Source: Heptranchias perlo (Eukaryota). From it: DNA of 64,000 bases. The notes under the pieces were generated by a model. The model was given only the letters and a program-made list of their open reading frames with translations, made no database searches and was not told where the DNA came from. The position numbers were made by a program, and so were the translations under genes. Each line of letters starts with the position of its first letter. Within the stretch, counting starts at the first letter, position 1. Positions 2,438 to 64,000 of the stretch are shown here, piece after piece. The stretch covers positions 38,316,001-38,380,000 of the forward strand of contig NC_090346.1 of NCBI RefSeq assembly GCF_035084215.1, read 5' to 3'.

Positions 2438-2692
2438 TCTACAATTTTGGTTCTTTGCTGCAGGAGCAGCCATTGGAGGACTGCCCCTTTAAATAGAGCT
2501 CCTCCAGCTGACAGCCTGTGATGCGGGTGCGCAGTCCGCCCGCTGCACAGGTTTCCGAACCCAGAAGCCACGGTAAGTGGCTTCAATTTACCCGCGATCG
2601 CGTGGGGAACGGACGGATTTCACTGGGCGGGTTACCCATGCACCCAGTCGCCCCCCCCCGCTGCCATCCCGCCTCCCTGTTAAATCGGGCCC

Positions 2693-4235: not shown

Positions 4236-4650
4236 AATCCATGCATACACAAGGATAACTGCACAGTATACAGGAGTGGGAAACCTTACATTCCCCATCT
4301 TGTAAATTTCCCAATTACTTGCAAAAATAGTGATTTAAAATAAAATACTGGGTAAATATAAAGATCACAGTTCTTCATTTCCTACAGATACAGGCATTGG
4401 GTCAGTCAGAGATCATAACCAAAAGGTAGAAAAAAATAGGATTACATAGAAACTGCAACAGGGTAACAGGCTGTTCAGCCCAACCAGTCTGTGTTGGTGT
4501 TTATCCTCCACAAGAGCAATCGCCCTAATCCAATGTGATTGAAATTTACCCCCAAAGAATTTGACTATCGCACTGAACCTGCTTTGTCAGAAGCTTTAAA
4601 AATGGGGTCCATTCACTCCAGCCACAGAACGGTGACTTCTTAGGCATGAT

Positions 4651-4933
4651 ACTCGACTCCACTTGAGCCCACTTCACTGCACTCGACCCCACTTGAGCCC
4701 ACTTCACTGCACTCGACCCCACTTGAGCCCACTTCACTGCACTCGACCCCACTTGAGCCCACTTCACTGCACTCGACCCCACTTGAGCCCACTTCACTGC
4801 ACTCGACCCCACTTGAGCCCACTTCGCTGCACTCGACCCCACTTGAGCCCACTTCGCTGCACTCGACCCCACTTGAGCCCACTTCGCTGCACTCGACCCC
4901 ACTTGAGCCCACTTCGCTGCACTCGACCCCACT
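4651..4933. repeat. 30-bp minisatellite ACTCGACCCCACTTGAGCCCACTTC(A/G)CTGC, 9 full copies plus a partial
   Basis: Direct head-to-tail repeats with no spacers. Confidence 0.97.
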
Positions 4934-5329
4934 GAAGATTGACAGTGGGCCAGCACATTCTAATTTCTCAGAGATTCGACTAGCTTCGAGACACTGTTTT
5001 CAGGCAATGGTTGTGGGGAGCTGTCTTTACAGGGACTGTATCAGCAGAGTCAGATGCAGAGTCGTGCCATCTGCTGTAAGGACACCTGCTGCTAACATGC
5101 ATCACAGGGCTGGCACAACCAGTGACAGAACTGGTCAGCTGTAGCTTCAAGCCTGCACATGGGCTTCCTTTGGCTGTGAAGGCTGCTCATGAGTTGAGAT
5201 GCCTTTTCAACCTTTGTACAGGCTTTCTAAATTTCAGAAATCTTGTCCCCCATTGTGGCAATCCCCTTTAATTATCTTCATTGTTTTAAATTTCACACAT
5301 GCAGTTTTTCTGCTCTTGCCCTGGATTTA

Positions 5330-11255: not shown

Positions 11256-12019
11256 TATGTATACTGTAGTCATATTGTCTTATATCAATGTTTGGGATTG
11301 TGCCGGGCAGAGATAAAATTCCAGAGCATCCCTAGTTCAACTCCAATAATTATTAATACAGTTAAATAAAGTAAAATTAGACTATTTATTAAGTCATTTA
11401 GATGTACATAAAGGTTGGGAGTTATAACACCAACAGATCTCATGTGGTGGTGCTCAGGTTACACCAATGCACACAAGAACAGAAACATTATAACATATTT
11501 CCCGTAATGTATTGCACTGCTGCTAAGAGGTTGCTATGCGTTATGTGGCCTGTGCCTTTAAGGCCATAAACTATTGGCCCGGATTTTCCTCTCAACGCGA
11601 ACAAATAATGCTCGTCGCTTGTTAGATTTGCACTTACCCATAAACTATCCATGGGCTTTTGGACTGCAACGTCCTGTAATCGGAAGCTGAGAAAAGTGCA
11701 GTGTCCTCCACAGGGCATCTGAGCAGTATCTGGAATCGCGCAAGAAAAAGTCTGTGAGAAAAGACATACCCACCAATTCAGCCAGGAGTCTTATAGAAAG
11801 CTGAATAGCCTTCAAATCCCCTATTAACTATTGAAAATTAGTTTAATTGTAAGTAACATTTTAAAAACCTTTTATAAAAAGGCAAAGTAATGAACTGTTC
11901 TTAAAAAACCATTGAAAGTTAATGCAGCATACGAGCTTCTGTGATGTAGCAGATGAACAAGTTTCACCATTGTAACATTTTTTGTTCTTCCTTCCCAGAG
12001 GTGCACAGCTGTCTGAGGA

Positions 12020-12705
12020 TGCACAGGCTGCAGAGGGCGGTGAGTCGGAGGATGCAGAGGGCGGTGAGTCGGATGATGCAGAGAGCGGTGAGTCGGGGGC
12101 CGTAGAGGGCGGTGAGTCGGGGGATGCAGAGGGCGGTGAGTCGGGGCTGCAGAGGGCAGTGAGTCAGGGGATGCAGAGGGCGGTGAGTCGGGGGCTGCAG
12201 AGGACGGTGAGTCGGGGGCTGCAGAGAGCGGTGAGTCGGAGGATGCAGAGAGCGGTGAGTAGGGGGCTGCAGAGGGCGGTGAGTCGGGGATGCAGAGTGA
12301 GGTGAGTCAGGGGATGCAGAGGGCAGTGAGTCGGGGGCTGCAGAGGGCAGTGAGTCGGGGGCCGCAGAGGGCGGTGAGTCGGGGGATGCAGAGTGTGGTG
12401 AGTCGGGGGATGCAGAGTGAGGTGAGTCAGGGGATGCAGAGGGCAGTGAGTCGGGGGCTGCAGAGGACGGCGAGTCACGGGCGGTGAGTCAGGGGCTGCA
12501 GAGGGCGGTGAGTCGGGGGCTGCAGAGGGCGGTGAGTCGGGGGCTGCAGAGGGCGGTGAGTCGGGGGCTGCAGAGGGCGGTGAGTCGGGGGCTGCAGAGG
12601 GCGGTGAGTCGGGGGCTGCAGAGGGCGGTGAGTCGGGGGCTGCAGAGGGCGGTGAGTCGGGGGCTGCAGAGGGCGGTGAGTCGGGGGCTGCAGAGGGCGG
12701 TGAAG
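12020..12705. repeat. GC-rich 24-bp minisatellite (GGGGCTGCAGAGGGCGGTGAGTCG) inside the Harbinger element
   Basis: Tandem units, homogeneous at about 12490-12700 and more diverged upstream. Confidence 0.95.
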
Positions 12706-13991
12706 TGGTAAATGAGTGGAAGGAGGAAGGGGGGGGCATTGGAAGGAAGAAGAGGGTGCGCACCCTGGGAGGGAGGGCAGGCAAAGTGACGTCTTCACGC
12801 CTACCCCCACGTGGTTGATGCGGGAGGACACTTGACCGTGATGAGCCTCACCTCATCCTCTCTCCAACTCTGAGCCCCTCTGGCTCTGTGCGAGACACAC
12901 ACACGACTCCCCTCACACAGGCAGCCGCCAAGCTGCTGCCACTGGGCCTGTGGGAGGAAACGCAATTGATGAGTCCGATCTGTCGGGGGTTGAGGAACCT
13001 TTGGGAGTTGGAGTAGATGCGTCCCACTCCCCTGTAAGACCCATGTTGATGACAACTGGGGAGGGGACTTCATTAAGTCGACAAGTGAGGTGAACGATGT
13101 TTGCTGAGAACGACAAGCACCTTGACTCTCTCATCTCCATTAGACAGGAGATCAATGGCGTTGGCCATAACATGTGACCAGCTGGCAAATATTGGGCATA
13201 ATGTAGGTCACCTTTGCCAGGTTCTTTTACATGTCGCTGATGTGACGGCTGTACTGCACCTGACGCCTGTGACACCCCACCTGCCTCCTCCCACTGCAGA
13301 CACAGTCCAGGCCCAAGAACCAGCAGCTCAGGCTCCCCCAGGCGTTACTTCTCCCAATGTCCGCTTGGAGCAGCACCTCCCCAGCTCCGAGCTCCCTGAT
13401 CACAGCCAACAGACAAGATACAGAGGTCATGCCCTTGGCACAAGAGGGGTCGGTTCACAGGGAGGGATGAGGACCAGGAGGAAATAGGGTGCCCCTCTTG
13501 TGCAGAGTACACCTCCTCTTGCTCAGACATTGTCATGGCGGCCCTCGGGCACGCCAGAGAGGGGGCAAATCAGTTAATGTTTTTGTTCTTTGTCTTAGTT
13601 CTTAGTCAGAAGTCATTTGTAACTGTTTGAAAATTTTTATGACTATCAACCACGTTTACAACTGTTTCCAAAGTAGAAAATGACTAAATTAACTCAATTT
13701 TTAGTCAACTCAAAACTCAGTTTTGCACTAAGCACCTCAATGTTTAATTAAGTTTTGCAATAACTACCTATTTCTTAAAAGTTTGCACCAAGTATTTGCT
13801 GCTGCAATAAAAGTTCACTGTTTCACTTTCAATCTTGCCTGTCCTTTCGTGTACTTCCCTGGGTGGGGGGGGAAGGGGAGGCATTTTGCCATTTTCACCA
13901 CTGTCCAAATGCATGAGCCACCAGCTGGTCTCTCGCCACCCTGCCCTCTGCAGCCGTGGCTTCCTCGGGGCGGGGGTCACGAACCATGACC

Positions 13992-14898: not shown

Positions 14899-15427
14899 TC
14901 TCTGGGGTGGGTAATCGTTCCTCCTGGCGCTGGACTCTTCTTTGTTGTTCCCTGAGTCGGCCTTCCACTCTGTACAGTAAATACATAAACAGTAGGATCT
15001 CGAGTGGAAAAAGCATTTTTTTTACCCCTCTTTTCTTTTTCCACACAGGCCTCTTTAAGCACTTCCAGGACTCTTGACGTCACATAAATTTGAAAAAAAT
15101 TGAAAAATTCTGACACACGGCTCTCACAGACTTTTTGTGCAAATCTCTGATTGGTAGAAAGCTCCCTCCGGCTGACTCCTGGCTTCATTAAATATGTGTG
15201 AAATTTAAATGGTGGCAAGACAGGCTCCTCACGTTAGTTCAGACAAGCTCTAACTTTTTCTGGAGAGTTTGGTACGTTCTTACGGCGTCAGTGCAGCAAC
15301 TTCAGGCTCTTCCATTCATTTGAATGGAGGGCCAGCTGGTGAGATGTCCCTCCCACGGAGCTTACGGTGGAGCAGGTACAGCAACTTCTGGATTTCCAGT
15401 TTAACTGCACATGTGCGATCACTGGAC

Positions 15428-15902
15428 TATGAGTACTGGTGAATGTAAGTATTGAGGGAATGTGAGTATTTAGTGAATGTGAGTACTGGGTGAATGAGAG
15501 TATTGGGGGAATGTGAGTATTTAGTGAATGTGAGTACTGGGTGAATGAGAGTATTGAGGGAATGTGAGTATTGGGGTGAATGTGAGTATTTAGTGAATGT
15601 GAGTATTTAGTGAATGTGAGTACTGGGTGAATGTGAGTATTTAGTGAATGTGAGTATTTAGTGAATGTGAGTACTGAGTGAATGTGAGTATTTAGTGAAT
15701 GTGAGTATTGAGGGAATGTGAGTATTTAGTGAATGTGAGTACTGAGTGAATGTGAGTATTTAGTGAATGTGAGTACTGAGTGAATGTGAGTATTTAGTGA
15801 ATGTGAGTACTGAGTGAATGTGAGTATTTAGTGAATGTGAGTACTGAGTGAATGTGAGTATTTAGTGAATGTGAGTATTTAGTGAATGTGAGTACTGAGT
15901 GA
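15428..15902. repeat. 17-bp minisatellite GTGAATGTGAGTA(TTTA/CTGA)
   Basis: Tandem units of two main variants; a short remnant recurs near 16680-16705. Confidence 0.95.
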
Positions 15903-16312
15903 CTATCATAATAGGTACAGCACAGGAGGAGGCCACTTGGCCCATTATGCCTGTGCCAGATCTTTGAAAGAGCTATCCAATTATTCCCATTCCCCGGCTC
16001 TTTCCCCATTGCCTGGTAAATTTTTTCCATTCAAGTGTTTATCCATTTTCCTTCTGAAAGTTACTATTGAATCTGCTTCCACCACCCTTTCAGGCAGTGC
16101 ATTCCAGATCATTACAACTCACTGCATAAAAAAATGTTTCCTCATGTCGCCTCTGGCTCTTTTGCCAATCACCTTAAGTCTGTGTCCTCTGCTTACTGAC
16201 CCTTCTGCCACTGGAAAGAGTTTCTCCTTATTTACTCTATCAAAACTGTTCATGATTTTGAACACTTCTATCAACCCCAGCTTCTCCACATATCTGAAGT
16301 CCATCATCCCTT
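15903..16312 (-). mobile_element. CR1-type LINE 3' fragment
   Basis: ORF 16119-16307 LIEVFKIMNSFDRVNKEKLFP...RGHRLK. Confidence 0.85.
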
Positions 16313-24661: not shown

Positions 24662-25460
24662 CATGTATGTGTACATCCGTGTATGCGCGTGTGTGATCTG
24701 TGCGCATGTGTGCATATGCGTGCACATGTGTGTGTGGGTGTGTTTGTGTGTGCATGTGTGTGTGCATGTATGTGAGTATGCATCTGTGCGCATGTGTGCA
24801 TATGCGTGCACATGTGTGTGTGTGTGTTTGTGTGTGCATGTGTATGTGTGCATGCGCAGGTGTAATGTCTGTTCCAGAATAAACTGAAAATGATGGTCAC
24901 TGGGATAAGAATAGTCAGAGCAGGCAATGGCTGCCTGTTATGGGAATAAACCCTGCCCAAAAACTGACCATGAAATGACATTGGGCACAAATTGCTCGGT
25001 GCAGCAAACCAACAGTGCTTGCCGCTCCATAGATTTATACTAACCCACTAACTTACCACGGTCTTTTCTTCGGGTACTTCCTCGAATAGGAAGCGGAGAA
25101 GAGCCCAGCGTCAGTTCAAATGAAGTTAGGACCCTGGGAGAAAGGAACAACCTCTCCCCTCGGCCAATCAGATCACAGTATTTTTGACAAGCTGCGTTCA
25201 CTGGGCCCGATTTTACCAGGGGTGCGGCTTGGCAGCGGGTGGTCAGGCGGGCTCGAGGAAAACGCGCCGGCCAAATTGAGTGCGTTGCGCACGCGATCGC
25301 GGGATGATTGATGTAATTAGCCGGCAGTTACGGGTTCCGCGCTTCTCAGCTGCGTGCCGGCGGCCTGGGCATGCGCATTGACGTCTGAGCGATGGTTGCG
25401 CTCTATTTAAAGGGGCAGTCCACCAAAGCCCCTCCAGCCACAAACTACACTCCATCAAGG

Positions 25461-44959: not shown

Positions 44960-47742
44960 AAATTTACCTACATTTTGGAGCCCCTCAATCTGACAAGATC
45001 AGGATGGGGGGGGGGGGGCAATGGATCTATTCCGCAGTACATCGGAGGAGGAGGAAAATGAAGATGGGGAACCCATCGCCAGAGCAACCGCGCACATTGC
45101 TGCCCGTGATGCCAGGGATTACTTCTCATTATGTCACATCTCATTATGAGGTTGCACCCATCACAGGACATATAGCCATGCACCAGCACTTTTTGATATT
45201 CGCACTTCAGTTGGTCCTATTAGACAGTCAAATGGGTTGTCACCTGGTGATTCACCACTCACAAGTGAGCACGAGCAGACACTGGTGGCAGGGGCAGCTG
45301 TGAAGAGTCCGCGTCGGGGGGAGCAATCCTCTCCAAGCTCTGCTCAGCTGGACATAGATGCTGAACCCCAGGGGCCATTGTCGAGAAGGAGAATGATAGA
45401 GCTGACAAGTTCTCATAATGAGATGTGCAAATTGAAGACTTTGAAATACTCAGGCCGCCTGGAACAACCACTGCCACCAACCTCCCATTTGCACAAAACA
45501 GTCCTTCAAACACGCCTACACCCATTGCACACGCACCCAATGGGTGACATCGTGTGTTGGCATTCATGATGAAGCACATGAAAGGTCAAATTCACAAAAG
45601 AGACTCAATAATGGCCAAGATGTAGCAGTGGTGGTGATAATGATTACATTTAATATGCCATAACAAAGAAAATATAAATTAACAACATGACAGCTTGTCA
45701 AACACCCTTGTACATACCCTTCGTAAATTACAATTGCTTAACCGTTCTCTTTCTACCGATTCTACGTGGTGCATCCCCTGTGGCTTCAGCAGAGGTATTG
45801 ACAGGTTGCTCAGATCCCTGCCCTGACTGCTGAGGTGCTCTCGGCCTATGACCTCTGGGTTTTGGAGCCTTTGAGGGTCCCGCCAAAGACTGCTCCACTT
45901 GCATCTGTGCAGGGGCAGACTCGGCCATCAGGAGAGGAAGCAGCATTGCGGGTACTGGTTGAGGAGGGGGCAATGGGTAAGAAGTGGGAGCGCTTTGAGT
46001 GGAGTCTCCACTTCCATTTTCCCTTTCGCCGTCATCCCTCTCTCGGGCCAGCGCAACATCATTCCCGCCACTCTGCTGGCCAGCAGGTTGGTCAGCAGAT
46101 GTGCCACGTCGCAAGACCACGGCTAAAGTATCTGCCTGCCTGTTTAAGGTGGCAGACATGTTGGCATCCAGAGTCCACACGGCCATTGTCATGGCCTGCA
46201 TGGACTCATTTGATAGCCATGCTTGAAGCTCAATGGAGGCTACTGTTCTCTCCATCGTACACACTCTCGCACTTACCTGCACCACCAATCCACTTGTAAT
46301 GGAGTTGGACTCCTCCATCCTCTCCGCTATTGTGGAAACTGTGCTTGCCATTTTTTCACTACCTTGCAAAGTTGCTGCTGCACCTCTATCATTCTCCTTC
46401 TCGACAATGGCCCCTGGGGTTCAGCATCTATGTCCAGCTGAGCAGAGCTTGGAGAGGATTGCTCCCCCCGACGTGGACTCTTCACAGCTGCCCCTGCCAC
46501 CAGTGTCTGCTCGTGCTCACTTGTGAGTGGTGAATCACCAGGTGACAACCCATTTGACTGTCTAATAGGACCAACTGAAGTGCGAATATCAAAAAGTGCT
46601 GGTGCATGGCTATATGTCCTGTGATGGGTGCACCCTCAGAAGGAATGAGCTCCTCTGAGGAATCGCTCTCTTCCATTTCTGCTGATTCCTCGTGAAGGTG
46701 TGAAGGTCCTGGAAGATAACAGAAAGCGATATTAATGATTCATCGCAAAAGTGATAAAATCAATTCATCCTGTGTGTGAAAGATGTTAAAGTTCTGTCGC
46801 CAGCCATCTACAGGTTGCCAGTCTCTCCATCTCCGATGGATAGGCATTCGACGGTCTGACTTATTTCCATGGCCTCCTCCTCCATTTCTGTCACCTCTAC
46901 TATGCGGTGGGCCACCTCCAGTTCTGCTCCTCTTCCGTGCGTTTTGTGCTCTCTTCTCCTACAAGGGGAGAAAGAACAGACCTGCGAGTGGCTGAAGGTG
47001 ATGTATCCACCTTATGAATGCATTCCTTTGGTTAATGCTGGTCATGAAAGAGATGCATCAGAGGGTGACTATCAGACAGATATATCACATTGCATCAGGT
47101 TTGGGGTGAGTGGCAGTGGTGAGTGAATAAATGAGCAGTTGAGCAAGTGCATAGAAAGTGAAGGATGGTTACTGCTGCTGACACTTAAGTGGGTGTGAGG
47201 AGTTATGTGATGGGGTTTGCGTGCTGAACAACACAGGATGTGGGTGAATCAGCAACTGTACCCACTTTTCCTGACCTGGTTAGGACATTAAAATGCTTCC
47301 TGCATTGACGCAAGACCGTGTTCCTGCTGCTCACCTCTTCTCCCACCTCCAGCCATGCATTTTTCGTTATAGAGCCAGGTTTCTTCCTGCCATCCATTGG
47401 AAACATTACCTCCCTCCTGGCTCTCAATACAGCCAGCAGTACATACAGGAAGGCATCATTAAATCTAGGGGCGGCCTTTGCTTTTCTGGATTCCATTTCT
47501 CCTTTCTCCAACAAAATCCATTCTTGGGACTGGCCCTGTAAAATAGCGGGCTTTAAATCGCATCATCCGGGTGCGCAATATGCCCGCTGCACAACTTGGA
47601 GACACGAAACCCGGAAGCATAAATAATTGCCTGCAATCAAGTTGCGATCGCAGATTTAAATGCGCACATTTGACTTGTGGGTTCCCCACGTGCAAATCCG
47701 TCCACCCGCTGAGTTCCCAGCTCCAAGTTAAAATCTAGGCCT
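44960..47742 (-). mobile_element. Harbinger internal-deletion derivative (Myb gene kept; transposase N- and C-termini fused)
   Basis: TIR-like TTAAAATCTAGGCC at ~47729-47741; + strand MGG...STSEEEENEDGEPIARATAHIAARDARD at ~45004-45120 joins the transposase start to its end; left boundary uncertain. Confidence 0.75.
45728..47496 (-). pseudogene. Harbinger Myb/SANT accessory gene, degraded
   Basis: MESRKAKAAPRFNDAFLYVLL...AWLEVGEEV...QCRKHFNVLTRSGK; exon 3 EHEQTLVAGAAV...APRRIGRKRTVKQL with frameshifts. Confidence 0.85.
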
Positions 47743-50824: not shown

Positions 50825-52577
50825 ACTATTTTTTGGTACCACCATTTAAGGAGACATTTCTGTACAGGATTTCTGACCATCCTGTCGCGTGATGTATTAT
50901 AGATGAGGACGCTCATCAGAAGTTTAGTCTCTTTCCTGCCGCATAACAAAGTTTAAGTCTGGAGAGTACAGAAGGAATGGAGGAGAGTGAAGCTGGAGGT
51001 CTCCCCCACGCTCAAGGTCAGTATCATTCGCTTCTCTTGTTTTTTCTCCACTCTCTCTCTTGCACTCACTCATAAATACACTCCAGCATACCACAATTAC
51101 ACACAGTATATAGCCATACAAACACAGATTGAGCAAATCTCTTAAAACCAAAATTCAAACAAATGTTCTTCTTCTGTTTCTATAGTTAACCCGAAGACTC
51201 AGCCCAACCTGCCATATAAATGGAATAAGCTGGCATCTCACATCACTGTGTCAAATAATTCTCCCATCACAAGCATCAGTACAGCTAAATCCATCCTGGG
51301 ATTTCTGATAGTCAGTTTGAGGATGGCGCGCTGAGTGAGACACAGAAAACAAGAGTGCAGGAGCTTGTGGTGGTGGCAGTGGAGGAGCAGGAACCTATGG
51401 GACAGAAAAGCAGTTCACTTCCTTCTTCAGCTGCAGAGCCCTGGGATTCACAGCTCACTGGACCTGCATTGAAAAGAAGGTAGCTATCTGATCAAAAACA
51501 TTTCATGCAGTTATATTAAGAGTGTGCAAGATCTGGCGATGACTGTAGTGAAGTCCAGTACTCTCATCTATGCACTTGTATATGATCACTACAGTCTATC
51601 CAGGTGCAACTACAGTGAAGCCCTCCTGTGACAGCGGTCTTTTGCACAATGTGAGTATTTCTCATGAATGCTCACTGCTGCTATGAAGGCTTTGGGCTCC
51701 AATCTCCAAGGGAGCTCTTGTATGGCTTCATATTTCAGGGCTTAATAGTGACCAGCAGCAGCTCCCTTGCAGATCATTTGATAGACTGAGGGAATCTCCA
51801 GCTGCAAGGCACAGCTGGTGTAGGCACGCATGAGGTTGCTGTTAGGGCGATGCCACATCGGCTCATCCAGCCCTCCCTCCACTCAAATGATAGCGGGAGG
51901 TGCCAGATAGTGGGCAGGACAAGCCAGCCACCACATGATGCTTGAGCAAGTATAGAGCTGAATTGTCTATATGTGGGCAGGACAGATGATGCATTGGGCA
52001 GATCAGGCATTTAAGTGAAGGTCTTCTCTATTGGATCTTGGAGTCTGACTCTTGCTGCCTGTGAAGATGTTTCAGCAGGGATATCTTCCGGATCATTGTC
52101 AGGGTCCTGCTTTGCCCTTGGCTGTGGGTGACTTCCTTCTCTTCCAGTTTATTGGTTAGGCCTCTCTGGGTGGCAAAGTTGTATAGCTTGATGCAAATTA
52201 CTATAATCCTGGAGACCCTGGCAAGGCTGTACTTTAATACACCTTCTGATCTGTCCAGCATTTGAAGAATTGCTTTGAGATGCCTATGGTACACTGATTA
52301 GAGAGCCTGATGGCTGCATGAGCCCTGTATCATTGCTTAGCTGGTGTAGAAGGTAGCCCTGGCCAATTGGAAGCCATCCTTCCAGTTCTCCATTTCCTTT
52401 AAATAGCCCAGGAATCGAAGATTAAAATTGAGACATCGTGATTGCTGTTTGAGAAGCACATGATCCTGTGTTGTTAATCTTTGATGACCTGATGTGGAGA
52501 TGCCGGTGATGGACTGGGGTTGACAATTGTAAACAATTTTACAACACCAAGTTATAGTCCAGCAATTTTATTTTAAA

Positions 52578-52616
52578 TTCACAAGCTTTCGGAGGCTTCC
52601 TCCTTCGTCAGGTGAA
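52578..52616 (-). ncRNA. Minimal type I hammerhead ribozyme motif
   Basis: Mirror image of 52626-52664. Confidence 0.75.
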
Positions 52617-52625
52617 CGAACATCG

Positions 52626-52664
52626 TTCACCTGACGAAGGAGGAAGCCTCCGAAAGCTTGTGAA
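52626..52664 (+). ncRNA. Minimal type I hammerhead ribozyme motif
   Basis: TTCAC-CTGACGA-A-GGAGG-AAG-CCTCC-GAAA-GC-TT-GTGAA: CUGANGA/GAAA core, 5-bp stems I and II, palindromic AAGCTT stem III. Confidence 0.75.
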
Positions 52665-53344
52665 TTTAAAATAAAATTGCTGGACTATAACTTGGTGTTG
52701 TAAAATTGTTTACAATTTGATGACCTGGACACTGATGAAATGGATGCTCTGCTTATTTATCAAGGCCATGGGATTTTGAACAGGCTCAGATGGCAACACG
52801 GTTGCAGTCAATAATATCCTAGACGCTGGGTAATCCTGCAATGAGCAAATATTGCAGTGTCTTCACACTCTTCTGGTTTTCCATGGGAAAAGTGGTGAAA
52901 ATGTTTGGTTTGCTTGATGCATTTGTGCATCCTGGATTCACTGATATTGCTGATGTCCACTGCCGTAGCTTGGAATGAACCCGAGGCATAAAAGTTCACG
53001 ACTGCGCTGATCTTCACTGCTACTAGCATTGCTGCCCCTGTGGTGAAAGTTTTCTATCGATCAGATTCCAACAGATGGCACAACTTCATCACTGCCTCCC
53101 TGGTGATGTCAAGCCTGCAAAGGCAGTCGTACTAGGACATTCCCAGATTGGGCTCGGACATAAAGGTGCATAAACGCAGGTGCAAACAGTTTACTTCTGG
53201 TGCAAGTGCACTTCTCTCATATTCCTGCTTCCATCTCTTCCTCCCCCAGAAACCTTAAATAGAGCAGAACACCCATAGGAGTTCCCTTATTGAAAATTTT
53301 GATTTTAGCAATCAAAAATCTGGCAAATAAAAATGCAGCAAAGC

Positions 53345-53510
53345 ACCCAGCAATCACAAAACCAACCATCACAAATCCAGCAACCACTAATCTAACCATC
53401 GTAAATCCAACCATCACCAATCAAAACCATCTCTAATCCAACCATCATTAATCCAACTATCAGTAATCTAACCATCTATAATCCAATCATTACTAATCAA
53501 AACCATCAGG
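53345..53510. repeat. Degenerate ~15-bp tandem repeat (AATCCAACCATCACT-like)
   Basis: About ten imperfect units just inside a TIR-like GGAATCCAGCCC at 53509-53520. Confidence 0.7.
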
Positions 53511-54989
53511 AATCCAGCCCTGGCTTGCCCATTCCATTTCGTTATGAATTATGGCACTGGCCGGGAAATCTACCTTCCTGAAAGTACTTACTGCATCATA
53601 TGATTAAGCTCCATTCTAGACGAGAGTTTGAGAGTTCTCTAATGCTGCTGTTAATACTTTTAACCCTGGCATAATGACACTGTTGTTGGGCGAGTGACCT
53701 GACATTAAAATGTTGCCTCAACTGCACCTTCAGGCTTCTGCCTGTCTGTAGTGATAGCATTCCTGTTTCCTTCGAAACTCAGAGGCATCATTGTGCATAT
53801 GCAGTTATATATTGTGTCTGTGCATTTCCAGTTATGTACTGGGTCTGTGCATTCGCAGTTGTATCTGCATCCGCAGTTGAATTGTCGATCTCAGAAGATG
53901 TGGAAGCACGCAGTGCTGATAATGTTGGCATCAGATAGATGAGATAACACCAGCATGAAACACTTGGCTGTCAGCTTCTGATTTACTCGCTACACTGCCC
54001 TATATGCCAGCACAGTCCACTCATTCACACAGCATCGCCCAATTCACTTTCTCCATATGTTTTGTAAGTAAGACTGACAGAGCCTGCGGCCTTTTCCTAA
54101 AGTGTGTGGGGGTCATTATTATGCTGGAAGACAGTAGAAAGGTCTAGGGAATTACTCTTGACACGTAAGTAAGATATTGTGGCAAAATTATTGACTGTAC
54201 ATAAATGAATCAAACTCATTTCAGATGTACCTGTCATATAATTAATACATTTACATTCCCTGGATAAATGGGGCAGATAGTTGAGATTGTCTGCCCACAT
54301 TAATTAATGCAAAATTTGGAGTAGTGACTTCAAAAACAAGCACACGATTAGAGCAACGTGACAGCTCCATAATTAAAGTGTCATTTAAATTGAGCAAACT
54401 TGTTGTCAGGAAGTACGCAAAGTAAAATTAAAATGACTTTGGAATAGCAAAGAAACACACTATACAGTAAAACTAGCAGCTTTACTGCATTGCAAAACTC
54501 CTGTCAGAAAAACTTCACAGGGTCAAAACAGGGGTTTCCAATAGCACGGGCAATAACTAGACCCCCTCAATGTTTCCAGTGAAATTCCTGAATGGCTTTA
54601 AAGATGCGATCATAAACCTACAGCAGATTCAAGGACTACAATTAAATTGGATAATGTGTTTCCATTTTGTTGGAATTACTGAACAGCAGTGGAGAAGGAC
54701 AAGATCCATTTAGGAGTTCATATAGAACACCAACAGCATCTCCATAAGGTGGCACCAATGAACACCCTTTAAGGAATGCCTTCATTGTAGTTTAGTTAGT
54801 GCGGGTTGATGTAATTGTTTTGGGCCAATTTATTGTGCACATAGGCGGAGAGGATTATAAGTGCAGTGGGTGTATGTGGCACTTAGCTGAAAGATTGCTG
54901 TATGAGGGCCTATCATATGGCTCTTGCTGCCTGAAACAGCCTTTGGCTGTGGGTGGACTTTCTCCTCCCTCTCATCCAGTATGAGACTT

Positions 54990-56300
54990 CTCTGGATAGC
55001 AATTTGTGAAACGTGTGGCAGACTACAATAATCTTGGAGGTCCTGGAAGAGCTATCTTGGAAGACAGTCTTGATCTATTCAGGGATCTGAAGCGCTACTT
55101 CAAGATGCCTATAGTATGTTCGATAATGATCCTATTTACTGCATGGGCCTCGTTGCTTCTTCACTCTTTTGCTGTTTGTGGATATCAGTAGTAACCTGAG
55201 CAAGGGCTGCAGAAGGTAGCATCGATCTCCTAGAAGCCATTCTTGTTGCCTTCTTCTTCAAACAGCCCAGGTAATAGCGTCAAGACTCCTCTCTGGAAAG
55301 TCGAGCACTGACCTGCATGATTCTGCGTTGCTGAACAATGACCATCAATAGAGTGAGAACTCCTTGCAAGTTATTAAGGCCTTGGGGTTATTTGCACGAA
55401 TCTAGATGGCCGCATGGATGCCATCAACAACACCCTGAACAATGGAGAATCCTGCTGTGGAAAAAATTGCAGGATCCTCTAATTCTGTTCCCAGGTTTGC
55501 AATGAAGATATAAATTTGATCGACTTGGCAAACTACGCAACAGTGACCTACACAAATCATTGGTTGGACCACAGTTAGATTATTATGTCCAGTTTTAGGC
55601 ACTTTACTTTAGAAAGGATGCCAAGGTCGTGGAAATGGTGCAGAAGAGCTTCACTAGGATGATACTAGGGATGTGAGGCTTTAATTATGAGAAAATACTA
55701 GAGAAACCGCGGCTCTTTTCATTACAACGAAGAAGATTAAGAGGTGTTCAGAATTATGAGCGTTTTGATAAATTAATATGGGGAAAAGTGGTTAGTGAGT
55801 TGGTAACTGTAGGGTGTAAATTTAAATTGTCACCAAAGAATGAAGGGAGAGGTTAGGAGAATTTTTTTTATGTATGCAGAGAATTGTTAGGACATGAAAT
55901 TCCCTATCAGAAGCAGAAGTCATAATTGATTTTAAAAGGTGAGTGGATAAAATTGCAAGGATGTGAGGAAAGGGTCTGATTGGATAGCTCTTTCAAATAC
56001 GATGGGCTGAATAGCCTCCTTCTGTGCTATAAAATGCTATGATTCTATGATAGAGTGTGTGGGTTGACTGATGTTGCTGATGTCCTCTATTGAAGCAAGG
56101 AATGAGCCTGATGTATAAAAGCTCAGGGCTGTGGTAACTTATGCTGTCACTGGTAGTGCCATCACTGTGGTGGAGGTTGCCTGCAACTCAGTTTTGAGCG
56201 GACATCACAGATCTGTGACAGCCACCCTGCTGAATCAGAGCCGGTGAAGATAATTTTCATTAGACATTCCTGAGTAAGCATGCCTGGGTCTCTGGACACT
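54990..56300 (-). pseudogene. Highly decayed HARBI1-like transposase split by a CR1 insertion
   Basis: Hand translation of the minus strand: ALPVTA*VTTALSFYTSGSF (~56090-56160), AGFSIVQGVVDGIHAAI (55402-55460), WLLGDRCYLLQP and RIIIEHTIGILK*RFRSL (~55080-55240). Confidence 0.8.
55545..56051 (+). mobile_element. Old CR1-type LINE 3' fragment
   Basis: cattggttggaccacagttagattattatgtccagtttt...ctatgattctatga. Confidence 0.8.
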
Positions 56301-56454
56301 GCTGTATGAGTAAGAGCAGGTAAGAGCAGGTTAGCGCAGTCTGGTTTTGACTTCCATTCCTCCTTTCAACCCTTCAAATAACACAAAAAGAGAGGAACCA
56401 TTGAACAATTAAGGTATCACATGCCTAACGTTAAGAGTCCACCTTTAAATATAC

Positions 56455-57175
56455 TTTTTTCTTTGGAGCAGAGGAGGCTGAGAGGTGATTTAATTGAGGT
56501 ATATAAAATTATGAGGGGCCTAGATAGAGTGGACAGGAAGGAACTATTTCCCTTAGCAGAAAGGTCAATATCCAGGGGGCATAGATTTAAAGTGATTGAT
56601 AGAAGGATTAGAAGGGAGCTGGAGAAAATTTTTAAAGATTTAGCATAATTTTCCTGCTTTTGTACTCTTATGCCTCTATTTATAAAGCCCAGGATCCCAT
56701 ATGCTTTTTTAACAGCCTTCTCAACTTGTTCTGCCACCTTCAAAGATTTGTGTGCGTACACCTCCCAGGTCTCTCTATTCCTGCACCCCCTTTAAAATTG
56801 TACCATTTAGTTTATGTTGCCTCTCCCCAGTCTTCCTGCTAAAATGTATCACTTCACACTTCTCTACATTAAATTTCATCTGTCATATGTCTGCCCATTT
56901 CACCAGTCTGTCTATTTCCTCCTGATGTCTGTTACAATCCTCCTCATTGTTTACTACATTTCCGAGTTTTGTGTCATCTGCAAACTTTGAAATTATGCCC
57001 TGTGTACCCAAGTCCAGGTCATTAATATATATCAAAAAGAGCAGCGGCCCTAATACTGACCCCTGGGGAACACCTTGTAAACTCCCTTCAAGTCTGAAAA
57101 ACAACCGTTCACTACTACTCTCTGCATCTGTCCCTTAGCCAATTTCTTATCCATACTGCCACTGTTCCTTTAATT
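56455..57175. mobile_element. Rearranged CR1: + strand 3' piece (56455-56630) joined tail-to-tail to a - strand RT piece (56640-57175)
   Basis: ORFs 56421-56648 (+) and 56883-57104 (-, [10 protein letters not shown]...FADD). Confidence 0.85.
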
Positions 57176-58114
57176 CCTAATTCTATAATTTAGGAATACT
57201 TTTAAATGATAATCTCAATCAAGCAATTGTATTGTAACCCAGTCAGGGGCTGAGCAAGGCTACAGACAGTGAGTTGAAAGTCCTGGAGGAATCTCCACAG
57301 AATGACAAAAGCTAGCAATAAGATGGAAACCTAATCAATCATGTATGGTCCTCACTGCACCAAGAAGCTGTTCCAGTGTGCTGTATACTAAAAAAAAATG
57401 ATGAATTGACAACAGGCTATTGTAAACTTGGTGCCAGCTTTAAATCCTAATACTCATGGCTAATGTTGAAGAACAGTAAATAACATGTAATAGTTGATGT
57501 GGAGAAGCTTTATACATATGAGAGGTAAAAATTAGTCAGATGAATTCTAGAATAATATATCTACTGTAATAATACACTGCAATAGGTCTCTTTTATATAA
57601 AATAGGGGATAACCATGCAGTGCACATATATGCTTCTCAAAGCAATCAGAGCACAAAGTACAGGATATCCGTGCTTGGCCCACCAGTCATTCCAAACCTT
57701 GTTTGGCTAATCATCTTTGGGGAGATGAAGCTTATCATCAGAGGAACCAGAGAATGTCATTAACAAGTGATCGGATCATGATGCGGGTATGTTTCTGATG
57801 AGAGTGATGGCTTAGACTGCATAATTGTGTGAGAACTGCTGAATACTGCGAAGATTTGTGTCCTTAGGCAGTCTCATTCCAATTCATCCTACATTACAAT
57901 CAGTCTGATACATTTCGTTCATTTCTGTTTCAAACCACCTAGTCCTTTTCTTTTACTAATTCTCCTCACCTTTAGCTTTCCTCCTCTCCTGAGGCACTGA
58001 TGGGGTACAGCTCCATGAGTTGTCAGCAGGCCTCCAGTAACCTGCAAATTGTAATTCTTCACCTGTGAGCCTACACCAGTGATTTTTAAACTTTTATGTG
58101 TGGGGGAACTGTCC

Positions 58115-58545
58115 TTGCTGACCTACATTGGCTCTTGTGGGGTCCCCCAATGCCTCCAATTTAAAATTCCGGTCGTCGTAGTTAAATCCCTTGATAGCCT
58201 CGTCCCTCCCTATTTCTGTAACCTTCTCCAGCCCTTCAATCCAACCCCTGAACTCTCAGTTCCTCTGACTGACATTTTGTGCATCCCCTTCCCTTTGCCC
58301 CAACATTGGCAGCCATGCCTTCAGCCCTCTAAGACCCACGCTCTGGAATTATCCCCTAAACCCCTTTGCCTCTCCTCCTTTAAGACCCTCCTTAAAACCC
58401 ACCTCTTTAAGCAAGCTGTTAGTCACCCCTGCTAACAGCTCCTTCTTTGTCTTGGCATCCATTTTTGTCTGATTGTGCTCTGTGAGGTGCCTTGGGATGT
58501 TTTTGTACATTACAGGTGGTATATAAATGCAAGTTGTTGTTGTTA
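58115..58545 (+). mobile_element. L2-type LINE 3' end
   Basis: FKTLLKTHLFKQA; tail atataaatgcaagttgttgttgtt. Confidence 0.8.
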
Positions 58546-58891
58546 AAGGGGCAACCACAACTCTCAGTTACTCTGAGGAATATATCTAAAGTTGATTTTT
58601 TTTTAAAAAGTAATATTTATCTTTCTTTCCTGTGTTAATATGTTTGTGATTTTCCTTTCCACGAGCACGTAACCTGACTCCATACACATGCAAAAAGCAG
58701 TTTATGTTATAACCCTGACAACCATCTTCAAGCGAAATACCCTGTGAAACGGTCAATTTATATTGAAACTGTTAACATTTAAAGCTATACATGCCTCAGC
58801 TCTGACTCGAGGATGCTTAAGTAATAATGATTTGAATATCAACCAGTAATTTTCCATGGGTGAATGCTAATTATGGCTTTCCTTTTATCTG

Positions 58892-59003
58892 ATCGCATGC
58901 TCACATTACTGTCAGTCCTTTCTCGCCCAACACTGTGTAAATTTTGAATCGCATGCTCACATTACTGTCAGTCCTTTCTCGCCCAACACTGTGTAAATTT
59001 TGA
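58892..59003. repeat. Perfect 56-bp tandem duplication
   Basis: atcgcatgctcacattactgtcagtcctttctcgcccaacactgtgtaaattttga occurs twice. Confidence 0.95.
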
Positions 59004-59474
59004 ATTGAGATATGTAGAGAGTATTAGATACTCACCAGCGATTTGCACCAGAAGTCTAATCAAGGGCTTCAAATCAGGTTATGAACTATAATGTGAACTC
59101 CTGGCTCCACAAAGTCTCTGGCCCTCGGCAGCTATTTTCCCCTTGTTTAAAACAAGTTCAGATGGACCCAGCTGGATACAAATGAATACTGTTTATTGAA
59201 AAACAAAAAAGTAGGTTATTTAATCAGACACAATACTGGCAACATGCCATGCTGCTATACATTGCCTGGAGATCTAAACCAGTAAATTTGAATCGAGTAA
59301 TCTGGTTCACATGCAGTACATCACAAATTACTTTATTACGTGGACTACATCTTATCCGGTTTAGAAATAAAAGATCACAAGAACGAAGGATGTGGAGATG
59401 CCGGTGATGGACTGGGGTTGACAATTGTAAACAATTTTACAACACCAAGTTATAGTCCAACGATTTTATTTGAA

Positions 59475-59515
59475 ATTTACAAGCTTTCGGAGGTTTCCTC
59501 CTTCCTCAGGTAAAT
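59475..59515 (-). ncRNA. Minimal type I hammerhead ribozyme motif
   Basis: Reverse complement ATTTAC-CTGAGGA-A-GGAGG-AAA-CCTCC-GAAA-GC-TT-GTAAAT. Confidence 0.75.
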
Positions 59516-59780
59516 GTCAGGAACTCCTCGAAGCCTACGCATTTATAAATCACAGAACAATACATGGTGATTACAGATAGTCTTTGCAACTGCCCGTTGC
59601 CAAGGCAATCACAGTGTTCAGACAGAGAGGTGTTACCTGCAGAGCCCCCGAATATACAGTCAACAAAAAAAACACAAACAGAAAAAAAACAGAGAGAGAG
59701 GCAGAAACATCCAGAAGGCAGAGAAAGCCAGCAAATGACCTGTTATATTAAAAACAGATAGCTTTTGTTCACTGGTGGGG

Positions 59781-60620
59781 TTACGTGTAGCGTGACATGA
59801 ACCCAAGATCCCGGTTGAGGCCGTCCTCATGGGTGCGGAACTTGGCTATCAATTTCTGCTCGACGATTTTGCGTTGTCGTGTGTCTCGAAGGCCGCCTTG
59901 GAGTACGCTTACCCGAAGGTCGGTGGCTGAATGTCCCTGACTGCTGAAGTGTTCCCCGACTGGGAGGGAACCCTCCTGTCTGGCGATTGTTGCGCGGTGT
60001 CTGTTCATCTGTTGTCGCAGCGTCTGCATGGTCTCGCCAATGTACCATGCTCTGGGGCATCCTTTCCTGCAACGTATGAGGTAGACAACGTTGGCCGAGT
60101 CACAGGAGTATGAACCATGCACCTGGTGGGTGGTGTCCTCTCGTGTGATGGTGGTATCTGTGTCGATGATCTGGCATGTCTTGCAGAGGTTACCGTGGCA
60201 GGGTTGTGTAGTGTCGTGGATGCTGTTCTCCTGAAAGCTGGGTAATTTGCTGCGAACGATAGTCTGTTTGAGGTTGGGTGGCTGTTTAAAGGCGAGTAGT
60301 GGAGGTGTGGGGATGGCCATAGCGAGTTGTTCGTCGTCATTGATGACATGTTGAAGGCTGCGGAGAACATGGCGTAGTTTCTCCGCTCCAGGGAAGTACT
60401 GGACGACGAAGGGTACTCTGTTGGTTGCGTCCCGTGTTAGTCTTCTGAGGAGGTCTATGCGATTTTTCGCTGTGGCCCGTCGGAACTGTCGATCGATGAG
60501 TCGAGCGTCATATCCCGTTCTTACTAGGGCGTCTTTCAACGTCTGTAGGTGTCCATCGCGTTCCTCCTCGTCTGAGCAGACCCTGTGTATTCACAGGGCC
60601 TGTCCATAGGGGATGGCCTC
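59781..60620 (-). pseudogene. Inverted duplicate of the Penelope ORF 3' part (thumb, Cys linker, GIY-YIG)
   Basis: Near-identical reverse complement of 61721-62560. Confidence 0.92.
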
Positions 60621-60970
60621 AGTTTGACATGTATGCCCAAGCTGTCAGGAAATGCGTCAATGCCAGATTCATCGGGCGCACTCAGAAGACAGTCCAGAAT
60701 GTCACCCGAGCACAACGCAACGCCATCAACGCTCTCAAGACCAACCGCAACATCGTCATCAAACTAGCGGACAAAGGAGGAGCCATCGTCATACAGAACA
60801 GAACGGATTATTGCAAATAAGCATACCGACAACTGGACAACCAGGAACACTACAGACGGTTACCCGCAGATCCGACCAAAGAACACACCCACCAGCTCAA
60901 CAAACTGATCAAGACCTTCGATCCAGTCCTTCAAAGCATCCTACGCACTCTCATCCCACGTACTCCCCGC

Positions 60971-62560
60971 GTGGGAGACTTCTACTGCCTCCCAAAGATA
61001 CACAAAGCCAACACACCCGGACGTCCTATCGTATCAGGCAACGGAACCCTGTGTGAGAGCCTCTCTGGATACGTCGAGGGCATCCTGAAACCCATCATAC
61101 AGGGAACCCCCAGCTTCTGTCACGACACTACAGACTTCCTACAAAAACTCAGTACCCACGGACCAGTTGAACCAGGAACACTTCTCACCACGATGGACGT
61201 TTCGGCACTCTACACCAGTATCCCCCACGATGACGGCATCACTGCGACAGCATCAATACTCAACACCAACAACAGCCAATCTCCAGACCGCATCGTACAA
61301 CTCATCCGCTTCATCCTGGATCACAATGTCTTCACCTTCGATAACCAGTTCTTTACCCAAACACACGGAACAGCCATGGGGACCAAATTTGCACCCCAAT
61401 ACGCCAACATTTTCATGCACAAGTTCGAGCAGGACTTCTTCACTGCACAGGACCTCCAACCAACGCTATACACCAGATACATCGACGACATTTTCTTTCT
61501 ATGGACCCACGGCGAAGAATCACTAAAGAGACTACACGATAACATCAACAAGTTCCATCCCACCATCAAGCTCACCATGGACTACTCCTCAGAATCAGTT
61601 TCTTTCTTGAACACACGAATCTCCATCAAAGACAGGCACCTCAGCACCTCACTCTACCGCAAGCCCACGGACAACTTCACGATGCTCCACTTTTCCAGCT
61701 TCCACCCTAACCACGTCAAAGAGGCCATCCCCTATGGACAGGCCCTGCGAATACACAGGGTCTGCTCAGACGAGGAGGAACGCGATGGACACCTACAGAC
61801 GCTGAAAGACGCCCTAGTAAGAACGGGATATGACGCTCGACTCATCGATCGACAGTTCCAACGGGCCACAGCGAAAAATCGCGTAGACCTCCTCAGAAGA
61901 CTAACACGGGACGCAACCAACAGAGTACCCTTCATCGTCCAGTACTTCCCCGGAGCGGAGAAACTACGTCATGTTCTCCGCAGCCTTCAACATGTCATCA
62001 ATGACGAAGAACACCTCGCTATGGCCATCCCCACACCTCCACTACTCGCCTTTAAACAGCCACCCAACCTCAAACAGACTATTGTTCGCAGCAAATTACC
62101 CAGCTTTCAGGAGAACAGCATCCACGACACCACACAACCCTGCCACGGTAACCTCTGCAAGACATGCCAGATCATCGACACAGATACCACCATCACACGA
62201 GAGGACACCACCCACCAGGTGCATGGTTCATACTCCTGTGACTCGGCCAACGTTGTCTACCTCATACGTTGCAGGAAAGGATGCCCCAGAGCATGGTACA
62301 TTGGCGAGACCATGCAGACGCTGCGACAACGGATGAACGGACACCGCGCAACAATCGCCAGACAGGAGGGTTCCCTCCCAGTCGGGGAACACTTCAGCAG
62401 TCAGGGACATTCAGCCACCGACCTTCGGGTAAGCGTACTCCAAGGCGGCCTTCGAGACACACAACAACGCAAAATCGTCGAGCAGAAATTGATAGCCAAG
62501 TTCCGCACCCATGAGGACGGCCTCAACCGGGATCTTGGGTTCATGTCACGCTACACGTAA
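60971..62560 (+). CDS. Penelope-like reverse transcriptase-GIY-YIG endonuclease ORF (5'-truncated; frame continues upstream to ~60621 across one TAA at 60818-60820)
   Basis: ADKGGAIV, FYCLPKIHK..PGRPIVS, MDVSALYTSIP, GTAMG, RYIDDIF, PCHGNLCKTC linker, VVYLIRC...YIGET, GLNRD. Confidence 0.93.
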   Translation: MGDFYCLPKIHKANTPGRPIVSGNGTLCESLSGYVEGILKPIIQGTPSFCHDTTDFLQKLSTHGPVEPGTLLTTMDVSALYTSIPHDDGITATASILNTNNSQSPDRIVQLIRFILDHNVFTFDNQFFTQTHGTAMGTKFAPQYANIFMHKFEQDFFTAQDLQPTLYTRYIDDIFFLWTHGEESLKRLHDNINKFHPTIKLTMDYSSESVSFLNTRISIKDRHLSTSLYRKPTDNFTMLHFSSFHPNHVKEAIPYGQALRIHRVCSDEEERDGHLQTLKDALVRTGYDARLIDRQFQRATAKNRVDLLRRLTRDATNRVPFIVQYFPGAEKLRHVLRSLQHVINDEEHLAMAIPTPPLLAFKQPPNLKQTIVRSKLPSFQENSIHDTTQPCHGNLCKTCQIIDTDTTITREDTTHQVHGSYSCDSANVVYLIRCRKGCPRAWYIGETMQTLRQRMNGHRATIARQEGSLPVGEHFSSQGHSATDLRVSVLQGGLRDTQQRKIVEQKLIAKFRTHEDGLNRDLGFMSRYT

Positions 62561-62828
62561 CCCCACCAGCGAACAAAAGCTATCTGTTTTTAATGTAACG
62601 GGTCATTTGCTGGCTTTCTCTGCCTTCCGGATGTTTCTGCCTCTCCCTCTCTGTTTTTTTTTCTGTTTGTTTTTTTTTTGTTGACTGTATATTCGGGGGC
62701 TCTGCAGGTAACACCTCTCTGTCTGAACACTGTGATTGCCTTGGCAACGGGCAGTTGCAAAGACTATCTGTAATCACCATGTATTATTCTGTGATTTATA
62801 AATGCGTAGGCTTCGAGGAGTTCCTGAC

Positions 62829-62869
62829 ATTTACCTGAGGAAGGAGGAAGCCTCCGAAAGCTTGTAAAT
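62829..62869 (+). ncRNA. Minimal type I hammerhead ribozyme motif
   Basis: ATTTAC-CTGAGGA-A-GGAGG-AAG-CCTCC-GAAA-GC-TT-GTAAAT in the sense pLTR. Confidence 0.78.
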
Positions 62870-63130
62870 TTCAAATAAAATCGTTGGACTATAACTTGGT
62901 GTTGTAAAATTGTTTACAAGAAAGAAGGACTTTAGAAAGAGAGGGAGAGGGAGAAAGAAATAGAAATTGGACCTTGTAGCATCCGTTTGATGGGCGTAAA
63001 ACGGTAGCAACAATGCACATTTTTGGGGATCAACATCAACAACAACAACAACTTGCATTTATATAGCACCTTTAAGATATGTAAGGAATCTTACAACACC
63101 AGGTTATAGTCCAACAATTTTATTTTAAAA

Positions 63131-63167
63131 TCACAAGCTTTCGGAGATTATCCCCTTCGTCAGGTGA
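63131..63167 (-). ncRNA. Minimal type I hammerhead ribozyme motif
   Basis: Mirror image of 63599-63635. Confidence 0.72.
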
Positions 63168-63598
63168 ATGAGTGGAAGATTCTCAAATCGCATATCTTAT
63201 ATTAGGCTGGGACAGCATCACACCAATCAAAAGGTGTCGTTGTTGTTCAAACAGGCCAGTCATGGAGAACAGCACGTCCCAGTACACTGGATATACATTG
63301 TGTCAATTACACAGACAGAAAGAAAGAGACCCAAATGGCAGAGAGAGAGAGAGAATATTAAAACACATAACTTTTTTTCCCAAAAAAAGTTATGTGTTTT
63401 AATATTCTCTCTCTCTCTCTCTCTCTGCCATTTGGGTCTCTTTCTTTCTGTCTGTGTAATTGACACAATGTATATCCAGTGTACTGGGACGTGCTGTTCT
63501 CCATGACTGGCCTGTTTGAACAACAACGACACCTTTTGATTGGTGTGATGCTGTCCCAGCCTAATATAAGATATGCGATTTGAGAATCTTCCACTCAT

Positions 63599-63635
63599 TC
63601 ACCTGACGAAGGGGATAATCTCCGAAAGCTTGTGA
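63599..63635 (+). ncRNA. Minimal type I hammerhead ribozyme motif
   Basis: TCAC-CTGACGA-A-GGGGA-TAA-TCTCC-GAAA-GC-TT-GTGA; stem II differs from the other copies but still pairs. Confidence 0.72.
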
Positions 63636-64000
63636 TTTTAAAATAAAATTGTTTACTATAACCTGGTGTTGTAAGATTCCTTACATTTGTCCACCCCAGT
63701 CTATCACCGGCATCTCCACACCTTTAACATAGTACAACGTCCCAAGGCGCTTCACAGGAGCGTATTCAAATAAAAATTGACACCGAGCCACATAAGGAGG
63801 TATTAGGACAGAGGCAGGTTTAAAGGAGCATCTTAATGGAGGAGAGAGAGATAGAGAGGCGGAGAGGTTTAGGGGGGGAATTCCAGAGCTTAGGGCCCAG
63901 GCAGCTGAAGGCACAGCCGCCAATGGTGGAGCGATTAAAATCAGGGATGAGCAAGAGGCAAGAATTGGAGGAGCGCAGAGATCTTGGAGGGTTGTAGGGC

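What the first reader, a model, noticed from the sequence alone, without database searches (positions are those of the whole stretch)
52578..63635. Six minimal hammerhead ribozymes with visible covariation
Seen: each pLTR arm holds CUGA(C/G)GA-A-stemII-GAAA-GC-UU closed by stem I. Stem I changes UUCAC/GUGAA to UUUAC/GUAAA (compensatory), and stem II changes GGAGG/CCUCC to GGGGA/UCUCC (still paired) between subfamilies, while the core stays fixed. Atypical features: an extra A after A9, a predicted U at the cleavage position, and stem III reduced to the palindrome AAGCUU. Established: minimal PLE hammerheads with palindromic stem III are thought to cleave as dimers. Inference: the structure is under selection; in the fold-back form each ribozyme is followed or preceded by its own antisense, a possible built-in silencer.
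Basis: partly seen in the sequence, partly recalled or inferred. Interest (0 to 1): 0.7.

Follow-up and report, generated by a model that had tools for sequence, protein, structure and literature searches.

The report
Ordinary Penelope hammerheads in dead fold-backs
These six small motifs, predicted to be self-cutting RNAs, are the standard kind carried by Penelope-type jumping genes, present over 80,000 times in this genome, and their mirror-image pairing is likely a by-product of how the element inserts rather than a built-in silencer.

Summary
All six motifs are real, but they are the mirror-image arms of only three insertions of one Penelope-like retroelement family. The motif matches 82,282 places in the genome, control 0.

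The three 'atypical' features are published traits of Penelope minimal hammerheads: the extra nucleotide after A9, the palindromic stem III, and U17 (20 of 44 rows seen). A turtle row has the same GCUU end (PMC4209133). Covariation holds across 17 variants but is thin: 4 of 10 pairs, 7 cells. Single copies decay, including at catalytic G8 and G12.

The fold-back is an insertion product. 78 of 81 head-to-head pairs carry the tail on one arm only, and 70 of 81 have an 11-15 bp target duplication. It would block folding but cannot be selected in dead copies.

5' ends cluster just before the ribozyme, about 29-30 nt behind a TATA box, not at the cut site. Inserted templates were therefore uncut or re-ligated. 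The scan noted such fold-backs before on other DNA (241 notes). Cleavage is untested. Verdict: new member of a known kind.

The parts
52491..52715 (.). Insertion 1: fold-back stub of two pLTR front ends, 95-nt arms 100% complementary, 3-nt centre; long tail on the left arm only
   Evidence: (I19)
52626..52664 (+). Minimal hammerhead 1a (C3 52631; predicted cut after 52659)
52578..52616 (-). Minimal hammerhead 1b, identical to 1a
52480..52490 (+). Target-site duplication of insertion 1, left copy (right copy 52716-52726)
59389..62919 (.). Insertion 2: 5'-truncated element (60614-62919, +) joined head to head to a shorter inverted copy (60631-59389, -); arms differ at 21 of 1196 aligned sites, at least 12 of them CpG decay; about 14-bp target duplication with one mismatch (59377-59390 / 62916-62929)
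60821..62560 (+). Open frame of 579 aa: RT plus C-terminal GIY-YIG-type endonuclease; 5'-truncated, stop at 60818-60820
   Evidence: (RVT_1 E 2e-10)
59781..60590 (-). Inverted partial ORF (RT thumb and endonuclease, 269 aa)
62797..62804 (+). TATA-like box 38 nt before C3 (predicted pLTR promoter)
62830..62868 (+). Minimal hammerhead 2a (G7; stem I UUUAC/GUAAA)
59476..59514 (-). Minimal hammerhead 2b (one loop change against 2a)
63080..63720 (.). Insertion 3: fold-back of two 3' UTR/pLTR ends, 242-nt stretch 100% complementary; long tail on the right arm only; about 13-bp target duplication with one mismatch (63067-63079 / 63719-63731)
   Evidence: (I6)
63598..63636 (+). Minimal hammerhead 3a (stem II GGGGA/UCUCC, 4-bp stem I)
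63130..63168 (-). Minimal hammerhead 3b, identical to 3a

Best explanation
The six motifs are minimal type I hammerhead ribozymes in the terminal repeat of a young, abundant Penelope-like retroelement, copied twice each into three truncated head-to-head insertions that are likely dead and likely arose when the element's enzyme copied RNA onto both ends of a roughly 12-bp staggered cut. Shown: the motif, its place 92 nt upstream of the ATG in intact 3,081-bp tandem units, the target duplications, the one-sided tail and the clustering of 5' ends. Inferred: in a source element the RNA starts about 10-17 nt before the core; stem III cannot form in one molecule, so two ribozymes would pair through AGCU and cut slowly after GCUU, probably helped by the element's protein. 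The RNAs that got inserted were uncut or re-ligated at this site. In the fold-backs the sense ribozyme is predicted to be fully paired to its antisense arm; this is a consequence of the geometry, not a selected function.
For: Motif inside pLTRs of intact RT-endonuclease tandems. Matches the published consensus point by point. 17 variants: 91.8% of cells paired, 4 pairs with double changes, covariation 0.193, reached by 0 of 500 shuffles, and above all slid controls. In 217 contexts N7, loop 2 and stem positions are polymorphic while U4, G5, A6, G8, A9, A13, A14, A15.1, U16.1 are not. 78 of 81 pairs have one tail; 70 of 81 have 11-15 bp duplications. 58 of 123 copies begin 0-20 nt before C3, mode 29-30 nt behind a TATA box, and shift with TATA spacing (p = 0.003). 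Only 98 strict matches begin at the cut site, against 55 and 263 at neighbouring controls. Anole Poseidon: enzyme cuts and extends both strands, two RT start sites, ribozyme needs protein and is not needed for insertion (PMC11167929). Hairpins -166 to -558 kcal/mol; stem II pair probability about 1e-18.
Against: No cleavage was measured. Double changes are few (7 cells; three pairs rest on one variant each) and the loop-closing pair is unpaired in 5 of 17; the variants are related and hand-picked. Most of the 217 contexts were found by patterns holding the core, and the downstream flank is also conserved, so core invariance is partly built in. The transcript start is inferred from DNA junctions only. 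Arkhipova 2013 explains head-to-head repeats by self-priming on an antisense template instead. The CpG asymmetry test did not show selection (see Tried and rejected).
Confidence: 0.85

Rival explanations
1. The fold-back is an evolved silencer: the antisense arm switches off the ribozyme or feeds small-RNA defence against the family.
For: The hairpin is predicted to abolish ribozyme folding. Such hairpins are very common (81 distinct pairs among the fetched loci). Antisense small RNAs to Penelopes are reported in rotifer and fly (PMC3846280 passages).
Against: The copies are truncated, lack the upstream ORF or promoter, have differing junctions and own target duplications, so the element cannot inherit the trait. 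The form is the typical PLE insertion. Arms decay at CpG sites.
Confidence: 0.07
2. The motif no longer cleaves in this family and is kept as a promoter-proximal or protein-binding hairpin, or simply carried along in a young family.
For: U17 triplets are not among the fastest natural sites (PMC3138052 passages name GUC and GUA as fastest). A14 and U17 could pair in the 6-bp AAGCUU duplex (-4.3 against -2.5 kcal/mol for AGCU). No pile-up of 5' ends at the cut site. Naiad PLEs thrive without hammerheads.
Against: Only N7 varies in the core across subfamilies; the same core with different stems sits in a second family with 33% protein identity; the anole homologue does cleave with protein.
Confidence: 0.2
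3. Dimer cleavage at both pLTRs releases a unit-length RNA that is circularised and copied by rolling-circle reverse transcription, as proposed in 2014.
For: Exact tandems with 0 differences in 2,700 bp between neighbouring units; a re-ligated circle would restore the intact motif seen in all insertions.
Against: The pile-up of 5' ends behind the TATA box points to linear, promoter-started templates for about half of the copies. Identical tandems also follow from read-through of tandem sources.
Confidence: 0.15

Closest known systems
Minimal type I hammerheads (min-HHR) of metazoan PLEs, Cervera and de la Pena 2014 (PMC4209133)
   Same: CUGANGAH core, G10.1-C11.1, short stem I, palindromic 15.2-16.2, NUH with U17 common; the Chrysemys row has the same GCUU end; opposite-strand pairs also noted there
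   Different: Copy number matched here (82,282, own pattern) is about nine times the highest quoted there (about 9,000 in Xenopus; methods differ); no shark row in the part of the alignment seen
Anole Poseidon element PAc (PMC11167929)
   Same: pLTR hammerhead near the ORF start, two 3' end positions about 35 nt apart (tail), uncut RNA as insertion template
   Different: Here the cut site is 92 nt upstream of the ATG rather than inside the ORF, and the protein has a Neptune-type CX4CxxC linker
Inverted pLTR + one-sided tail + target duplication of EN+ PLEs (PMC8557442, PMC3846280)
   Same: Head-to-head truncated copy, tail at one end, target duplication
   Different: Quantified here: one tail in 78 of 81 pairs; duplication length peaked at 12 bp (44 of 81)
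Non-LTR retrozymes (bioRxiv 10.64898/2026.07.22.740005)
   Same: Type I hammerheads related to PLE pLTRs
   Different: The window copies are inverted pairs, not tandem arrays of short non-coding units

Membership tests
PLE minimal hammerhead | CUGANGA and GAAA boxes | tested here: met
   all six
PLE minimal hammerhead | Extra nucleotide between 9 and 10.1 | tested here: met
   A in 216 of 217 contexts; listed as conserved in PMC4209133
PLE minimal hammerhead | G10.1-C11.1 pair | tested here: met
   17 of 17
PLE minimal hammerhead | Palindromic 15.2-16.2, no monomeric helix III | tested here: met
   G-C in 215 of 217; self-duplex predicted
PLE minimal hammerhead | NUH cleavage triplet | tested here: met
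   CUU; U17 in 81,183 of 82,282
PLE minimal hammerhead | Located in the pLTR of a PLE | tested here: met
PLE minimal hammerhead | Self-cleavage as a dimer | not testable with these tools
   needs an assay
Canonical hammerhead (Rfam models) | Match to an Rfam hammerhead model; stable helix III | tested here: not met
   no hammerhead family among 32 matches at E<=1
EN+ Penelope-like element | Single ORF with RT | tested here: met
   RVT_1 E 2e-10 and 3e-10; 902-aa intact ORF in L062
EN+ Penelope-like element | C-terminal GIY-YIG endonuclease with CCHH | tested here: met
   No direct Pfam GIY-YIG hit at E<=0.1, but it aligns across the domain with a PLE protein that has one (E 1.7e-6); C, C, H, H read by eye
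EN+ Penelope-like element | Tandem pLTRs, inverted 5' copy, tail, target duplication | tested here: met
Neptune clade | CX2-5CxxC linker before the endonuclease | tested here: met
   CHGNLCKTC in the ORF; definition from PMC8557442; shared with Nematis
Neptune clade | RT phylogeny with reference PLEs | not tested
   no reference set was fetched
Non-LTR retrozyme | Tandem short non-coding units each with a hammerhead | tested here: not met
   window copies are inverted pairs

The most novel reading that the evidence does not exclude
The hammerhead fills the first 40-46 nucleotides of the element's capped mRNA, so a dimer- or protein-gated cut removes the cap and acts as a self-limiting off switch on translation, while only uncut RNA is copied, onto both ends of a 12-bp cut by a dimeric enzyme that starts one cDNA at each of two sites.
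Probability: 0.2. Interest if true: 0.6.

Novelty: new member of a known kind. Interest (0 to 1): 0.25.

Why it matters
The motifs are ordinary. The role of PLE hammerheads is still called unclear in the literature seen (PMC8557442 passage). This family offers intact, nearly identical source units, tens of thousands of dated copies and natural stem variants. It also leaves a genomic record that templates were not cut at the ribozyme and that insertion is two-ended. That makes it a convenient test system, but the six copies add little beyond the rest of the family.

Tried and rejected
CpG symmetry test for selection: harmless C7>U 1,597 against core-breaking G8>A 953; control CpG just upstream 177 against 179 (Fisher p about 1e-5). 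Not counted as support: only 1 of 9 U7 pairs shared the change on both arms (0 of the G8A pairs seen), so most arose after insertion, and wider sequence context could give the bias. It does show that at least 953 copies lost G8.

Pile-up of 5' ends at the cut site: none (98 against 55 and 263; the controls differ in base composition and the +2 control includes indel variants).

Candidate intron from the cut site to the CAG before the ATG: no such joint in four runs of contigs; contigs show presence only.

Expression: no listed holder is on record as RNA. Guessed-RNA contigs cover the whole unit with a 3' bias and only repeats of the stretch between the insertions; no conclusion drawn.

Slips redone: one search's alignment part (spacer error, 27 contexts; redone in 57), (structure off by one; redone in 59; long copies without a matching reference read as short; redone in 71).

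Lunse et al. on dimer cleavage was not held; I saw only its title in a reference list.

Searches for 'Penelope, twin priming, inverted' (2 unrelated papers) and 'hammerhead ribozyme, Penelope, shark' (1 review) found no specific report, within this library only. Supplement file 1 of PMC4209133 could not be read and bioRxiv supplements are closed; both may list cartilaginous-fish motifs.

Full report
Observation. A scan of both strands found six CUGANGA motifs followed by a 5-bp stem II and GAAAGCUU, at the coordinates given. They fall into three inverted repeats. Each is flanked by its own target duplication of 11-14 bp, so the window holds three insertions. The middle one contains a truncated RT-endonuclease frame. 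Rfam has no model that matches them.

The family. The pattern matches 82,282 places in the 3.25-Gb genome, control 0; an independent flank pattern matches 80,384. Intact 3,081-bp tandem units with a 902-aa ORF exist; six units from four arrays differ by 0-15 sites in 2,700 bp, so the family is young. The protein has RT, a C-terminal GIY-YIG-type domain (no direct Pfam hit; homologous across the domain to a second PLE that has one) and a CX4CxxC linker, which points to Neptune (definition in PMC8557442; no tree was built). The predicted cut lies 92 nt upstream of the ATG.

Are the features atypical? No. I read parts 1-2 of 4 of PMC4209133 and part 2 of 3 of its supplement. It lists a conserved nucleotide between 9 and 10.1, G10.1-C11.1 and palindromic 15.2-16.2 as hallmarks, with consensus CUGANGAH and NUH. 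By my count 20 of the 44 rows seen have U17, and the turtle row ends in G C U U as here. That paper found no monomer activity and low dimer activity for a Schistosoma motif. In this genome U17 is fixed: 81,183 of 82,282 matches, against 139 with C or A.

Covariation. On 17 hand-picked natural variants, 91.8% of cells pair, 4 of 10 pairs show double changes, and the covariation score 0.193 was reached by 0 of 500 shuffles and by no slid control. Against this: 7 cells only, three of the four pairs rest on one variant each, the loop-closing pair fails in 5 of 17, the outer stem I pair in 9 of 17, and the variants are related. Within the core only N7 varies between subfamilies; changes at C3 come with truncated ends and those at G12 with CpG decay (most contexts were found by core-bearing patterns). 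A second, distant PLE family in the genome has the same core with other stems and C17. Selection on source lineages is likely; single copies decay (953 with G8A; G12A in 7 of 217).

The fold-back. Of 81 distinct head-to-head pairs in the fetched loci, 78 carry the long tail on exactly one arm (p about 7e-20 against independence). 70 have a shared flank word of 11-15 bp, 44 of them 12 bp (no shuffled control was run; two window pairs score lower because of one mismatch). Inverted copies with a one-sided tail are described as typical (passages of PMC8557442 and PMC3846280). The anole Poseidon protein cuts and extends both strands, is predicted to be a dimer and starts at two sites (parts 1-2 of 4 of PMC11167929). 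The simplest inference is one cDNA on each end of a staggered cut, joined at their 5' ends. Two pairs with arms from different subfamilies inside one duplication (L067, L077) fit two templates. The two ribozymes of a fold-back are on opposite strands and cannot dimerise with each other. In read-through RNA the sense copy is predicted to be locked in the hairpin. That silences a dead copy; it is not a function the element can inherit.

What the templates looked like. All six arms run 51-93 nt past the cut site with the motif intact, so their templates were uncut or re-ligated there. Copies beginning exactly at the cut site number 98 under a strict pattern, against 55 three bases upstream and 263 two bases downstream. 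Earlier scan notes suggested that 5' ends mark the transcript start; I tested this. Of 123 copies from loci picked by the flank or the plain core pattern, 58 begin 0-20 nt before C3, 44 keep their own TATA-like box, 7 begin further up without it and 14 begin downstream or were unparsed. The commonest offset is 29-30 nt behind the TATA box, and breakpoints shift from about -10 to about -17 in subfamilies with a longer spacer (45 against 24 copies from all loci, p = 0.003). Insertion 1 begins at -9 and -12. The start site is inferred, not shown. If right, the ribozyme fills the first 40-46 nt of the mRNA and its cut would remove the cap.

Other papers: bioRxiv 10.64898/2026.07.22.740005 (part 1 of 5 and passages), PMC6765202 (passages) and PMC3138052 (passages). 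Hammerhead numbering and the catalytic roles of G8 and G12 are partly recalled; the G8 dependence is also.

Verdict. Real, well explained, and a new member of a known kind. Interest 0.25.

Noticed in passing
L162-L169, L215-L217 (G000:C1 about 0.93-1.02 Mb and 198.12-198.27 Mb): A second PLE family in about 8-kb tandem arrays near both ends of contig C1, mixed with TTAGGG repeats. It has an upstream ORF with a weak GDSL/SGNH-like hit (E 0.008), a 744-aa RT-GIY-YIG ORF and a minimal hammerhead with C17.
   Followed up: partly
L067:5070-5207 and L077:3885-4704: Head-to-head insertions with one 12-bp target duplication whose arms differ at three linked stem II/loop sites typical of two subfamilies, suggesting two RNA templates in one event.
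   Followed up: partly
L061, L062, L064, L068: Intact, nearly identical 3,081-bp tandem units (0-15 differences in 2,700 bp): a very recent or active family.
   Followed up: partly
window 583-2488, 25389-28876, 45141-47151: Dispersed copies of another element with Myb/SANT-like and Harbinger-like frames by eye; 264-nt inverted arms at 45141-45404 / 46381-46644, 98% complementary.
   Followed up: no
window 33747-34592 (+): 282-aa open frame that looks like part of a G-protein-coupled receptor by eye; not searched.
   Followed up: no
window 4591-4993, 11952-12784, 15371-15970: Minisatellites of 30, 24 and 17 bp period.
   Followed up: no
L078:7678-7687 (7.7 kb right of the window): Another tiny fold-back of the same family that turns downstream of the ribozyme and lacks it, with a 13-bp duplication.
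   Followed up: no
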